A stretch of 39,327 nt of DNA from a virus. The stretch spans positions 1 to 39,327 of the IMG/VR virus record IMGVR_UViG_3300045988_101759. One strand, given 5' to 3'. The first letter of the stretch is position 1; the number at the start of each line of letters is the position of its first letter. Below, one piece after another: positions 32,882 through 33,643 of the stretch. Below the pieces are notes generated by a model. The model had not been told where the DNA came from. It did not search any database and was given only the letters and a program-made list of their open reading frames with translations. Made by a program: the position numbers and the translations under genes.

Positions 32882-33169
32882 TCAGGCTCCCTTCACATAT
32901 CCAGCCGGTTCCGGGCCGAGCTGGCTTGGATCCTTGGCCTTCCACGCGCATTTCGCGCGCAAGCAACCGGCCTCGCGGTCGATGACGATCTCGCCGAAGC
33001 GCGCCGGCGCGACCATGGTGAGGTTCCAGCCACGGTCGCGGTTGAGCGCGCTGATGGTCTCGTACAGTTCGCCGATCAGCTCGGCGGACGTCATGCCGAC
33101 GCTGGCGGGCGTGAGCGGCCATTCGAACCACTTCTCGCCTTCCGGCCTGCTTGGTGTTTTGCTTGGCAA
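32882..33169 (-). CDS. 95-aa protein, unknown
   Basis: TTG start 6 nt after AAAGGAGG. An alternative internal ATG exists. Confidence 0.5.
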   Translation of the reverse strand: MPSKTPSRPEGEKWFEWPLTPASVGMTSAELIGELYETISALNRDRGWNLTMVAPARFGEIVIDREAGCLRAKCAWKAKDPSQLGPEPAGYVKGA

Positions 33170-33195
33170 CGTTTGCCTCCTTTGGATTGATGTCG

Positions 33196-33287
33196 TGCCG
33201 GGGCGCGGATTCGAACCGCGCATCCATCCGCCGACGTGACCTCAACACGCCGATCCATGGCGCCCGCATCCTGTCGCGGGCCCCGGC
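33196..33287 (-). tRNA. 92-nt tRNA-like element (atypical; class-II-like length, ambiguous anticodon arm)
   Basis: Perfect 7-bp acceptor stem GCCGGGG/CCCCGGC. T arm CGCGG-TTCGAAT-CCGCG. D-like hairpin CCGC-GACAGGAT-GCGG. Discriminator A and no encoded CCA. Two overlapping anticodon-like hairpins are possible (GGA or GAG). Confidence 0.55.
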
Positions 33288-33430
33288 GAAGGCCGGACGG
33301 GAGGAGAAGAGAGAAGATGACCCGTCCGGCTGGTTTTAACGTCTTTTCCTTGACGCGCGGGCGGTTCCGGCATGGCCGCGCATGACGAACCACGTCCATG
33401 CCGCAATGTGTGCGGAACCGTCCAAGTCCT

Positions 33431-33643
33431 TCACTGCCGTTGCTCGTCCAGCCAGCGCGCGAAGCGGGGGTCGGAGCACAGGCGACGCATGATGACGGCC
33501 GTCGGAATGAGCACCGCGAACGGCGCGGCGATGAGATGTTCGATCGGATGCGTGCACGCCGGCGTGCAATACAGCACCCACATGGCCAGCAACCACACCG
33601 CGAACAGCAGCTGGTGCAGGATGACGTGGGCAAGGGCCTTCAT
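33431..33643 (-). CDS. 70-aa membrane protein
   Basis: Translation begins MKALAHVILHQLLFAVWLLAMWVLY. ATG after CAAGGAG. Confidence 0.6.
   Translation of the reverse strand: MKALAHVILHQLLFAVWLLAMWVLYCTPACTHPIEHLIAAPFAVLIPTAVIMRRLCSDPRFARWLDEQRQ

What the first reader, a model, noticed from the sequence alone, without database searches (positions are those of the whole stretch)
33196..33330. A 92-nt tRNA-like element with perfect acceptor and T arms but an ambiguous, non-canonical middle, inside the early operon
The minus strand at 33287-33196 reads GCCGGGG CC CGCGACAGGATGCGG GCGCCATGGATCGGCGTGTTGAGGTCACGTCGGCGGATGGATG CGCGGTTCGAATCCGCG CCCCGGC A. It forms a perfect 7-bp acceptor stem and a canonical T arm (CGCGG-TTCGAAT-CCGCG). 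A D-like hairpin contains GG. The discriminator is A and no CCA is encoded. The central part can fold in two mutually exclusive ways. One is GCGCC-AUGGAUC-GGCGU, with anticodon GGA and a pyrimidine at position 37. The other is a better 6-bp stem GGCGUG-UUGAGGU-CACGUC, whose loop is ideal for tRNA-Leu(GAG) with U33 and G37. In the second fold an extra 12 nt lies between the D arm and the anticodon arm, and the variable region is short. A 9-bp hairpin with a pyrimidine-rich 19-nt loop (33293-33329) lies directly 5' of the element. The element could be a diverged class II phage tRNA, a tRNA-derived decoy, or a processing or regulatory element. Phage tRNAs with altered anticodon regions have been linked to evasion of host anticodon nucleases.
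Basis: partly seen in the sequence, partly recalled or inferred. Interest (0 to 1): 0.7.

Follow-up and report, generated by a model that had tools for sequence, protein, structure and literature searches.

The report
Conserved non-canonical tRNA-like RNA in Bifidobacterium phages
The flagged 92-nt element is a real, strongly conserved tRNA-shaped RNA in the early operon of a widespread group of human-gut Bifidobacterium phages, but it fails the standard tRNA model, annotation software calls it Leu or Ser at random, and it probably does not work as an ordinary decoding tRNA.

Summary
Window 33287-33196 (minus strand) has a perfect 7-bp acceptor stem, a 5-bp T stem with loop UUCGAAU, a D hairpin with GG, discriminator A and no CCA. 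A 10-bp hairpin with a 19-nt pyrimidine loop lies 4 nt upstream.

The element is not chance and not a host fragment. I found 58 distinct versions in about 230 loci from Bifidobacterium phages and prophages. Compensatory changes support two acceptor pairs and one T-stem pair.

It is not a standard tRNA:
- Rfam gives no tRNA hit even at E<=10.
- ARAGORN copies Leu (in a wrong 83-nt register) and 52 copies Ser(GGA/AGA).
- The Leu-like loop sits on the hypervariable tip of a conserved hairpin. Other lineages carry CUCCGAUAA, AUAGGA or UCCGGGA there.
- The segment GCGGGCGCCAUGGAUCGGCG, which holds the GGA loop, is nearly invariant.
- Folding favours the long central hairpin over a Ser-type cloverleaf by 4-12 kcal/mol.
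- C8, U37 and A73 are also atypical for a tRNA-Ser.

The whole 260-nt intergenic region is structured and more conserved than the flanking genes.

Best reading (confidence about 0.45): a tRNA-derived, non-decoding RNA cut out of the early transcript by RNase P and RNase Z, with its function in the invariant central arm. A genuine aberrant tRNA remains possible (about 0.27).

The parts
33196..33287 (-). tRNA-like element, 92 nt. Position p corresponds to coordinate 33288-p. G1 is at 33287 and discriminator A92 at 33196.
   Evidence: The family alignment A1 holds 58 distinct sequences.
33281..33287 (-). Acceptor stem, 5' strand GCCGGGG. It pairs with 33197-33203.
   Evidence: Pair 6:86 is GC 48, AU 6, GU 2. 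Pair 7:85 is GC 43, GU 9, AU 5.
33263..33280 (-). D arm, positions 8-25. The stem is CCCGC/GCGGG (3-5 bp) and the loop is G-A-N-N-G-G-A-K. There is no single-stranded 8-9 linker if all 5 pairs form; C8 replaces the usual U8.
   Evidence: A14, G18, G19 and A21 equivalents are conserved, while positions 15 and 16 vary.
33248..33267 (-). Nearly invariant core GCGGGCGCCAUGGAUCGGCG, positions 21-40. It includes the candidate anticodon arm GCGCC-AUGGAUC-GGCG, with GGA at 33254-33256.
   Evidence: Mean column identity is 0.995 across 20 diverse loci. Only G32A, C36U, C26U and G27A variants were seen.
33231..33253 (-). Central hairpin, positions 35-57. The base UCGGCG/CGYCGG is conserved. The tip, positions 41-51 (33237-33247), is hypervariable; in this window it is UG-UUGAGGU-CA, a Leu GAG-like loop.
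   Evidence: Tip variants are listed. Pair 38:54 is GC 35, GU 23. RNAfold and RNAalifold both choose this hairpin.
33221..33230 (-). 3' linker CGGAUGGAUG, positions 58-67. It varies at positions 60-62 (GAU, GUU, AAC, or a 1-nt deletion).
   Evidence: The proposed pairing 28-31:61-64 is contradicted by 19 unpaired cells.
33204..33220 (-). T arm CGCGG-UUCGAAU-CCGCG.
   Evidence: Pair 70:82 is CG 44, UA 8, UG 1, other 5. The loop varies mainly at positions 59 and 60. Type F has UCCGAAA.
33292..33330 (-). Module II: a 10-bp hairpin with the 19-nt pyrimidine loop UCAUCUUCUCUCUUCUCCU, 4 nt upstream of G1. On the + strand it is followed by GGTTTTAACGTCTTTTCC.
   Evidence: Column identity is 0.96-0.98. 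One stem pair is A-U, G.U, G-C or A.C, and L343 shows an A-U to U-A swap.
33339..33356 (-). Small hairpin GCGUC-AAGGAAAA-GACGU in the A-rich stretch upstream of module II.
   Evidence: Predicted by RNAfold; the pairs are kept in 106 intergenic variants.
33360..33423 (-). Module I: a long branched hairpin. The outer stem is GGACGGUUCC/GGAACCGCC and the inner stem is GGCAUGG/CCAUGCC.
   Evidence: Compensatory pairs are C-G 95 / U-A 9, and U-A 57 / C-G 12 (with C.A 36).
33167..33183 (-). Ribosome-binding site AAAGGAGG (33183-33176) and start codon TTG (33169-33167) of the downstream 95-aa gene. The start codon lies 26 nt (33170-33195) after the discriminator.
   Evidence: TTG is replaced by ATG at the same position in variant lineages.

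Best explanation
The element is a tRNA-derived, tRNA-shaped RNA that is no longer an ordinary decoding tRNA. It is the 3' module of a conserved structured RNA region of about 240 nt in the early operon of a lineage of temperate Bifidobacterium siphoviruses.

Shown here:
- An acceptor/T-arm minihelix supported by covariation.
- A D loop and T loop with the conservation pattern of a tRNA elbow.
- A central arm that consists of an invariant 20-nt segment displaying AUGGAUC, followed by a hairpin with a conserved base and a hypervariable tip.
- Co-orientation with the flanking early genes, with no predicted sigma-70-type promoter nearby and no terminator-like site between the element and the downstream gene.

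Inferred:
- The early polycistronic transcript is cut by host RNase P at G1, 4 nt after the upstream 10-bp hairpin. That hairpin would then cap the 3' end of the upstream mRNA.
- RNase Z or an equivalent cuts after A73, and CCA is added.
- This separates the small early genes from the ssb/replication genes and releases a stable RNA of about 90 nt.
- That RNA acts through its invariant central arm on a trans factor. Candidates are a tRNA-binding or tRNA-cleaving protein or a synthetase, for which it would be a mimic or decoy. It does not act by reading codons.
For: - Structure and conservation. 58 distinct variants from about 230 loci keep the acceptor and T stems through compensatory changes. 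19 cells show changes on both sides against 4.6 expected, and 0 of 500 shuffles reach that value.
- tRNA-like loop patterns. The D loop varies only at the 15/16-type positions and the T loop mainly at 59/60.
- Minus-strand RNA. G.U pairs outnumber A.C pairs 31 to 5 in the acceptor stem and 165 to 1 in the central hairpin.
- Constraint is strongest in the core. Positions 21-40 have identity 0.995 and the tip about 0.80, while the flanking coding sequences are at 0.78-0.86. The downstream protein falls to 47-76% identity while the intergenic RNA stays nearly unchanged.
- Non-canonical for decoding. There is no Rfam tRNA, tRNA-Sec or tmRNA match even at E<=10. C8 is invariant. Position 37 of the GGA loop is U.
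- Identity mismatch. The discriminator is A, whereas SerRS uses a long variable arm plus G73 (PMC7609411).
- Folding. The Ser-type cloverleaf is 4-12 kcal/mol worse than the long-hairpin fold in all six types, and its variable region has no common hairpin. RNAalifold also picks the long hairpin.
- The Leu-like loop is dispensable. It is replaced by CUCCGAUAA, CUCCGACAG, AUAGGA or UCCGGGA in other lineages.
- Relaxed tRNA features. Type F has T loop UCCGAAA, some variants have UUCGUUC, and 9 of 58 variants carry an acceptor mismatch.
- Not coding. Length differences of 1, 2 and 5 nt inside the element rule out the spurious ORFs that span it.
- Co-transcription. No sigma-70-like promoter is predicted nearby, and no terminator follows before the ribosome-binding site 12 nt downstream.
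Against: - There are no expression, processing or aminoacylation data. RNase P/Z cleavage and any trans target are inferred only.
- The invariant segment is exactly what a real anticodon arm would look like. It starts 1 nt after the D stem and has a 5-bp stem, a 7-nt loop and U33. The most variable region would then be a class II variable arm, and ARAGORN does copies tRNA-Ser.
- The only substitution recurring in the GGA loop (5 of 58 variants) is at the wobble position (GGA to AGA, still Ser).
- A pure processing signal would not need an invariant central arm, so the trans function is a postulate.
- No complementary target was found in the phage genome.
- Thermodynamic predictions ignore tertiary contacts and modifications.
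Confidence: 0.45

Rival explanations
1. It is a genuine but aberrant class II-like phage tRNA that decodes through the invariant loop AUGGAUC. The anticodon would be GGA, reading Ser codons UCC and UCU. The variable hairpin would serve as a long variable arm. The unusual positions 32, 37 and 38 would protect it from host anticodon nucleases.
For: - ARAGORN draws this cloverleaf with the true 7-bp acceptor stem in 52 copies.
- The stem GCGCC/GGCGU starts 1 nt after the D stem, and U33 is present.
- This arm is the most conserved part, and the putative variable region (21-26 nt) is the most variable in sequence and length, as in class II tRNAs.
- The only recurrent loop change is G34A, which still gives Ser.
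- Actinobacterial VapC toxins cleave tRNA-Ser(GGA/UGA/CGA/AGA) in the anticodon, and phage tRNAs are reported to escape such nucleases through loop mutations (PMC10264068).
- RloC, PARIS, CapRel and MazEF are present in some bifidobacteria.
Against: - No Rfam tRNA hit at E<=10.
- A73 rather than the G73 that SerRS uses.
- U37 and C8.
- This fold is 4-12 kcal/mol less stable than the alternative, and the variable region has no hairpin shared by the six types.
- T-loop U55C and A58U variants exist.
- With a class II shape and A73, identity would point to Leu or Tyr rather than Ser (established identity rules, from memory).
Confidence: 0.27
2. It acts mainly in cis as an RNA element with no trans-acting product. 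The three modules together would control processing, stability or translation of the early operon. The tRNA shape would serve only as an RNase P/Z cleavage site (tRNA punctuation). Alternatively, the pyrimidine loop, which contains CCUCC, would mask the downstream ribosome-binding site until cleavage.
For: - The whole 260-nt gap is structured and conserved together, with covariation in modules I and II.
- The hairpin ends 4 nt before G1, and the ribosome-binding site starts 12 nt after A73.
- No separate promoter or terminator is predicted.
- All relatives of the downstream gene keep the gap of about 265 nt.
Against: - A cleavage signal needs only the acceptor/T minihelix and elbow. Those are the parts that vary, while the central arm is invariant.
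- Loop-to-RBS complementarity is only GGAGG:CCUCC, which any ribosome-binding site would show (my inspection).
Confidence: 0.15
3. It is tRNA-Leu(GAG), as ARAGORN and the public record OY725605.1 annotate it and.
For: - The loop UUGAGGU (or UUCAGGU, CUGAGGU) matches bacterial tRNA-Leu anticodon loops, with U33 and G37. The match to tRNA-Leu loops is from memory.
- A73 fits Leu identity (from memory).
- 43 of 58 variants keep a Leu-type loop and vary only at positions 32, 34 and 37.
- ARAGORN copies Leu.
Against: - ARAGORN's Leu model uses a false acceptor stem with 2 mismatches and a 4-bp T stem.
- With the true acceptor stem, the loop sits on an arm of about 15 layers instead of 5 bp.
- Lineages D, E and F have no Leu loop, yet keep everything else.
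- No Rfam hit.
Confidence: 0.06
4. It is a decaying pseudo-tRNA, a captured host tRNA fragment, or a DNA-level site with no RNA function.
For: - The same 22-nt T-arm/acceptor 3' half occurs in ordinary tRNA-Phe and tRNA-Thr genes of unrelated phyla.
- Several variants carry stem mismatches.
- The core contains overlapping palindromes GGCGCC and CCATGG.
Against: - It is conserved above the level of the flanking genes, with compensatory changes and strand-specific G.U pairs.
- No Bifidobacterium tRNA with this 3' half appears in the species-representative genomes.
- No iterons were found.
Confidence: 0.05

Closest known systems
Phage-encoded tRNAs, including actinobacteriophage tRNAs with altered anticodon loops that escape host tRNA nucleases (PMC10264068)
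   Same: It is encoded inside a phage operon. It has a 7/5 acceptor/T architecture, G18-G19 and T-loop elbow signatures, no encoded CCA, and an anticodon-like loop (U-GGA-U) with unusual flanking positions.
   Different: It fails the tRNA covariance model. It has C8, U37 and an A73/Ser mismatch. It has a competing and much more stable central hairpin, and no well-formed variable arm.
Non-translating pseudo-tRNAs such as Bacillus cereus tRNA-Other (PMC3399842, abstract seen)
   Same: It is a tRNA-shaped RNA predicted as a tRNA by software, it departs from canonical features, and it is proposed to act outside decoding.
   Different: There is no sequence relationship. The phage early-operon context differs. 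Here the central arm carries an extra hairpin with a hypervariable tip.
tRNA-like RNase P substrates embedded in longer transcripts: the phage P1/P7 C4 antisense RNA precursor, P4 CI RNA, the stable T4 species 1 and 2 RNAs, and mitochondrial tRNA punctuation (from memory, not checked here)
   Same: An acceptor/T-like minihelix sits inside a polycistronic transcript and could direct endonucleolytic maturation.
   Different: This element keeps a full elbow and an invariant central arm. That is more than a cleavage signal needs. No processing data exist for it.
Class II tRNAs (Ser, Leu, Tyr) and the allo-tRNA / tRNA-Sec-like group (PMC5389517, PMC7609411)
   Same: Length of 87-92 nt, extra nucleotides between the anticodon-like arm and the T arm, and disagreement between apparent identity elements and anticodon.
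   Different: The 7/5 architecture is supported by covariation at pair 7:66, so it is not 8/4 or 9/3. The D stem and loop differ. The variable region has no conserved helix of its own.

Membership tests
Canonical bacterial tRNA (Rfam RF00005) | Covariance-model score at or above the gathering threshold | tested here: not met
   No tRNA hit in the window at gathering score, and none in 33000-33500 at E<=10.
Canonical bacterial tRNA (Rfam RF00005) | 7-bp acceptor stem plus discriminator, and a 5-bp T stem with a UUCRANY loop and G53-C61 | tested here: met
   Covariation at pairs 6:86, 7:85 and 70:82. Minor lineages carry UCCGAAA or UUCGUUC loops.
Canonical bacterial tRNA (Rfam RF00005) | D arm with U8, A14, G18-G19 and A21, and a 2-nt linker at positions 8-9 | tested here: inconclusive
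   A14, GG and A21 equivalents are conserved. C8 and C9 are invariant and can extend the D stem to 5 bp, which leaves no linker.
Canonical bacterial tRNA (Rfam RF00005) | 5-bp anticodon stem one nucleotide after the D stem, with a 7-nt loop, U33 and a purine at position 37 | tested here: inconclusive
   GCGCC-AUGGAUC-GGCGU fits in position, stem length and U33. Position 37 is U. The stem competes with a hairpin that is 4-12 kcal/mol more stable. There is no covariation either way.
Canonical bacterial tRNA (Rfam RF00005) | Aminoacylation and use on the ribosome | not testable with these tools
   Needs acid-gel Northern blots or in vitro charging.
Class II tRNA-Ser | Long variable arm forming a defined stem-loop, plus discriminator G73 | tested here: not met
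   The discriminator is A in all 58 variants. The variable region folds weakly (-3 to -7 kcal/mol) and differently in each type. The SerRS rule is taken from PMC7609411.
Class II tRNA-Leu | Leu anticodon loop on a 5-bp stem at the canonical distance from the elbow, with A73 | tested here: not met
   A73 is present. The GAG/CAG loop caps an irregular arm of about 15 layers and is absent in lineages D, E and F. ARAGORN's Leu model needs a false acceptor stem.
tmRNA / tRNA-Sec / allo-tRNA | For tmRNA, a tRNA-like domain with G3.U70 and a tag reading frame. For the others, an 8/5, 8/4 or 9/3 acceptor/T architecture. | tested here: not met
   ARAGORN -m finds nothing. Rfam gives no hit. Pair 3:70 is C-G. 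The 7/5 architecture is supported by covariation of pair 7:85.
tRNA-like RNase P/RNase Z processing signals in mRNAs | Acceptor/T minihelix with elbow, embedded in a longer transcript | tested here: met
   The structure is present. It has the same orientation as both flanking genes, with no predicted promoter or terminator between them.
tRNA-like RNase P/RNase Z processing signals in mRNAs | Demonstrated cleavage at the 5' and 3' ends | not testable with these tools
   Needs RACE, small-RNA-seq or in vitro cleavage.

The most novel reading that the evidence does not exclude
The RNA is a tRNA-scaffolded bait. A processed tRNA-shaped carrier displays an invariant U-GGA-U loop and, on a hairpin whose tip is under diversifying selection, look-alikes of anticodon stem-loops. 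These are Leu GAG and CAG in most lineages and a Pro-CGG-like UCCGGGA in another. The upstream anti-SD-like pyrimidine loop would be part of the same bait. Together they would soak up or mislead host tRNA- or rRNA-cleaving toxins (VapC-, MazF-, RloC- or PARIS-type) early in infection or induction.
Probability: 0.12. Interest if true: 0.8.

Novelty: new variant of a known kind. Interest (0 to 1): 0.55.

Why it matters
- Prevalence. These phages are common in human gut metagenomes. The protein clusters of the adjacent gene hold thousands of member sequences.
- Annotation. The element is currently labelled tRNA-Leu or tRNA-Ser depending on small sequence differences, so tRNA counts and codon-compensation analyses of bifidophages inherit an artefact.
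- Biology. It is one of the most conserved stretches of the early region, more conserved than the genes around it. It therefore marks an unstudied RNA function in temperate phages of an important infant and adult gut genus.
- Significance by outcome. A decoy or mimic role would add an RNA-based counter-defence built on a tRNA scaffold. A charged tRNA would be an unusual case of a tRNA with a non-standard core and conflicting identity elements.

Tried and rejected
- Rfam at gathering score and at E<=10 gave only insignificant + strand hits: Atu_C6, Ms1 and mir-132.
- ARAGORN tmRNA and intron modes gave nothing new.
- Insertion or intron idea. Removing hairpin 37-55 gives a 73-nt RNA whose GCGCC could pair with the second GGCG. 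ARAGORN does not accept this as a tRNA. No hairpin-less copy exists in IMG/VR; the one hit was a chance match in a coding region.
- Search for new tip types with a non-A at the 6th tip position. IMG/VR returned only type F.
- Host-fragment idea. The genome scan of the 3' half found tRNA-Phe and tRNA-Thr genes of Aminicenantes, WOR-3, Cloacimonadota and Clostridia. In Bifidobacterium it found only prophage copies.
- Antisense seed idea. The phage genome shows no excess of sites complementary to the invariant core (6 matches with <=3 mismatches against 11.7 expected).
- Origin or iteron idea. There are no direct-repeat arrays.
- Helix 28-31:61-64 from the minimum-free-energy fold is contradicted by 19 unpaired cells.
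- The neighbouring proteins gave no PHROG hit apart from SSB.
- The literature searches I ran (2 of 10 used) found no description of this element in bifidophage papers.
- A + strand small RNA ending at module II is left open. The hairpin plus T-run and the excess of A.C over G.U in that stem hint at it, but no promoter was found.
Full report
**1. The observation**

It has these features:
- A perfect 7-bp acceptor stem (GCCGGGG/CCCCGGC).
- A T arm CGCGG-UUCGAAU-CCGCG.
- A D hairpin with loop GACAGGAU.
- Discriminator A followed by CGA, so no CCA is encoded.
- Two mutually exclusive central hairpins: GCGCC-AUGGAUC-GGCGU and GGCGUG-UUGAGGU-CACGUC.

The upstream hairpin is 10 bp (33330-33321 with 33301-33292). 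It has a 19-nt pyrimidine loop and ends 4 nt before G1. The 92-mer folds at -53.5 kcal/mol, z = -2.9 against dinucleotide shuffles.

The standard tools disagree:
- ARAGORN calls tRNA-Leu(gag) at 33279..33197. It does so only by using a shifted acceptor stem with two mismatches and a 4-bp T stem.
- Rfam finds no tRNA, tRNA-Sec or tmRNA at gathering score in the whole window, and none at E<=10 in the 500 bases around the element.

**2. Context**

The window is 97.9% identical over the tested stretch to OY725605.1, Siphoviridae sp. ctl617. This is a temperate siphovirus of about 40 kb in which the element is annotated tRNA-Leu by ARAGORN.

The element lies in a 260-nt gap. Upstream is a small early ORF with stop codon TGA at 33433-33431. 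Downstream is a 95-aa ORF with ribosome-binding site AAAGGAGG and start TTG at 33169; the start is ATG at the same position in variant lineages. After that ORF come ssb, a replication initiator and a ParB-like gene.

No sigma-70-like promoter or terminator is predicted next to the element, so it is probably co-transcribed with the early operon.

The hosts are bifidobacteria. Prophage copies occur in a B. angulatum MAG and in B. boum LMG 10736.

**3. The family**

Exact-pattern scans of IMG/VR were anchored on four different parts of the element: the 3' half, the centre, the D arm and the invariant core. These scans, together with relatives of the downstream protein looked up in public assemblies, gave about 230 loci and 58 distinct sequences of 87-92 nt. 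The downstream protein's clusters hold thousands of member sequences, so the phage group is common.

Pair counts on alignment A1:

| Pair | Counts |
|---|---|
| Acceptor 6:86 | GC 48, AU 6, GU 2 |
| Acceptor 7:85 | GC 43, GU 9, AU 5 |
| T stem 70:82 | CG 44, UA 8, UG 1, other 5 |

In total 19 cells have changes on both sides against 4.6 expected, and 0 of 500 shuffles reach that value. By the stricter count of pairs there are only three such pairs, which is not beyond the shuffles.

The loop patterns match a tRNA elbow:
- The D loop keeps G-A-N-N-G-G-A-K. The A14, G18, G19 and A21 equivalents are fixed, and the 15/16-type positions are free.
- The T loop varies mainly at positions 59 and 60.

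G.U pairs outnumber A.C pairs 31 to 5 in the acceptor stem and 165 to 1 in the central hairpin. The selected structure is therefore an RNA of the minus strand.

Length differences of 1, 2 and 5 nt inside the element exclude the long spurious ORFs that span it on either strand.

**4. Not a host fragment**

A scan of one genome per bacterial species for the T-arm/acceptor 3' half, allowing variation at two positions, found ordinary tRNA-Phe(GAA) and tRNA-Thr(CGT) genes. These were in Aminicenantes, WOR-3, Cloacimonadota, Clostridia and other groups. In Bifidobacterium it found only the prophage copies. The minihelix is a common GC-rich tRNA design and not a recent capture from the host.

**5. 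Which loop is the anticodon?**

Three lines of evidence bear on this.

Conservation:
- Positions 21-40 (GCGGGCGCCAUGGAUCGGCG) are the most conserved 20 nt of the whole region, with mean column identity 0.995 in 20 diverse loci. This segment covers the 3' D-stem strand, G26, and the GCGCC-AUGGAUC-GGCG arm.
- The tip of the second hairpin is the least conserved part, at about 0.80.
- In the scans that left these positions free, the only changes seen were G32A (GGA to AGA), C36U, C26U and G27A.

Tip variants. The Leu-like loop is one of several tips on a conserved base UCGGCG/CGYCGG:

| Type | Tip sequence |
|---|---|
| A, B and variants | UG-UUGAGGU-CA, UUCAGGU, CUGAGGU, UUCAGAU |
| F | UG-UCCGGGA-CA |
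| D | CUCCGAUAA or CUCCGACAG |
| E | AUAGGA |

A loop that whole lineages can replace with non-anticodon sequences cannot be the conserved functional anticodon.

Geometry:
- With the true acceptor stem, the GAG loop caps an irregular arm of about 15 layers instead of a 5-bp stem.
- The GGA loop sits at the canonical place, one nucleotide after the D stem. ARAGORN draws this cloverleaf as tRNA-Ser(gga/aga), 91-93 nt, with the true acceptor stem, in 52 copies. It copies Leu.

**6. Why it is probably not a normal tRNA-Ser either**

- C8 and C9 are invariant and can extend the D stem to the acceptor stem.
- Position 37 is U.
- The discriminator is A in all variants, whereas SerRS relies on a long variable arm plus G73 (PMC7609411).
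- In all six sequence types the Ser-type cloverleaf is 4-12 kcal/mol less stable than the fold in which GGCG (37-40) pairs with CGYC (52-55).
- The 21-26 nt that would be the variable arm fold weakly (-3 to -7 kcal/mol) and differently in each type. RNAalifold also chooses the long hairpin.
- Neither central fold has compensatory changes. The long hairpin shows 38:54 as GC 35 / GU 23. The extra helix 28-31:61-64 of the minimum-free-energy fold is contradicted by 19 unpaired cells.
- The sequence contains GGCG twice and CGCC/CGYC twice. A third arrangement is therefore possible: 26-29 paired with 56-59, with AUGGAUC as a 7-nt bulge and hairpin 37-55 as an insert. Deleting the hairpin does not give something ARAGORN accepts, and no hairpin-less copy exists in IMG/VR.
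- Minor lineages have T loops UCCGAAA or UUCGUUC, and 9 of 58 variants carry an acceptor mismatch. This suggests looser tRNA constraints than on a decoder.

**7. The surroundings**

The whole gap is a conserved structured RNA region:
- Module I (33423-33360) is a branched hairpin with compensatory pairs (C-G 95 / U-A 9, and U-A 57 / C-G 12).
- A small hairpin GCGUC-AAGGAAAA-GACGU follows.
- Module II is the pyrimidine-loop hairpin, with column identity 0.96-0.98. One of its pairs is A-U, G.U, G-C or A.C, and it shows an A-U to U-A swap in L343.

The downstream protein diverges to 47-76% identity, and its N-terminus is replaced in some lineages. The gap of about 265 nt stays nearly unchanged.

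On the + strand, module II is followed by GGTTTTAACGTCTTTTCC. It also shows more A.C than G.U cells (36 against 15). An antisense terminator role cannot be excluded, but no promoter for such a transcript was found.

**8. Mechanism**

I commit to the following reading: a tRNA-derived, non-decoding RNA.

Shown:
- The tRNA-like minihelix and elbow.
- The invariant central segment.
- The hypervariable tip.
- Minus-strand RNA selection.
- Embedding in the early operon.

Inferred:
- RNase P cuts at G1 and leaves the upstream mRNA ending in the 10-bp hairpin.
- RNase Z cuts after A73, and CCA is added.
- The released RNA of about 90 nt acts through its invariant central arm on a trans factor, as a mimic or decoy of a tRNA.

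I give this 0.45. The main rival, at 0.27, is a real but aberrant tRNA that reads Ser codons through GGA, with loop changes that evade anticodon nucleases. Two facts make that rival plausible. VapC toxins of Mycobacterium cleave tRNA-Ser(GGA and others) within the anticodon (PMC10264068). tRNA-targeting systems such as RloC, PARIS, CapRel and MazEF occur in some bifidobacteria. The remaining rivals are a purely cis-acting processing or translation-control role (0.15), tRNA-Leu (0.06), and a functionless or DNA-level remnant (0.05).

**9. Comparison with known systems and novelty**

The element works like a phage tRNA or tRNA-like RNA but fails membership tests:
- Canonical tRNA: the covariance model gives no hit.
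- tRNA-Ser: it has A73 and no defined variable arm.
- tRNA-Leu: the loop is at the wrong distance from the elbow and is dispensable.
- tmRNA, tRNA-Sec and allo-tRNA: the 7/5 architecture is supported by covariation and there is no G3.U70.

The closest analogues are non-translating pseudo-tRNAs such as B. cereus tRNA-Other (PMC3399842) and tRNA-like RNase P substrates in phage transcripts (from memory). I found no description of this element in the bifidophage papers I searched. I rate it a new variant of a known kind, with interest 0.55. It is a clearly functional, very common and mis-annotated RNA with an unusual architecture, but no mechanism is yet demonstrated.

Noticed in passing
window 33360-33423 (- strand): Module I is a conserved branched hairpin upstream of the finding, with compensatory pairs (C-G 95 / U-A 9, and U-A 57 / C-G 12 / C.A 36). 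It contains GCGGCAUGGA and AUGCGCGG, which echo motifs of the tRNA-like element.
   Followed up: partly
window 33292-33352, both strands: On the + strand the pyrimidine-loop hairpin reads as a purine-loop hairpin followed by GGTTTTAACGTCTTTTCC, which resembles an intrinsic terminator for antisense transcription. Its stem has more A.C cells (equal to G.U on the + strand) than G.U cells, 36 against 15. No + strand promoter was found.
   Followed up: partly
window 33302-33320 (- strand): The 19-nt loop UCAUCUUCUCUCUUCUCCU, followed by CCC, contains CCUCC, the anti-Shine-Dalgarno core. It is almost invariant across lineages. It could mask ribosome-binding sites or mimic the 16S rRNA 3' end. Not tested.
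   Followed up: no
about 125 family loci (for example L001, L162, L181): ARAGORN labels the same element tRNA-Leu(gag/cag) in 70 loci and tRNA-Ser(gga/aga) in 52, depending on a few substitutions. Public annotations such as OY725605.1 inherit the Leu label.
   Followed up: yes
window 33196-33287; L329-L333: GGAU occurs four times in the 92 nt: once in the D loop, once in the GGA loop and twice in the 3' linker. The type F tip loop UCCGGGA differs from a tRNA-Pro(CGG)-type loop UUCGGGA (from memory) only at U33.
   Followed up: no
L001 1320-1395 and 25 other loci; L058, L074, L079, L240: A tRNA-Pro(tgg) lies next to the integrase in 26 loci and is the likely attachment site. Four related contigs instead carry a tRNA-Lys(ttt) whose T loop is UCCGAGU or UUCGAGU.
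   Followed up: no
L143 (CAVAWX010000044.1): A family copy lies on a 15-kb contig binned as an Acidaminococcaceae MAG. It is probably a mis-binned Bifidobacterium phage contig.
   Followed up: no
L005 7618-7703; L059 3607-3677; L110 5679-5749: ARAGORN also reports an 86-nt tRNA-Ser(gct) with an odd T loop in one related contig, and a 71-nt tRNA-Met(cat) of doubtful quality in two others. These may be further degenerate tRNA-like sequences or false positives.
   Followed up: no
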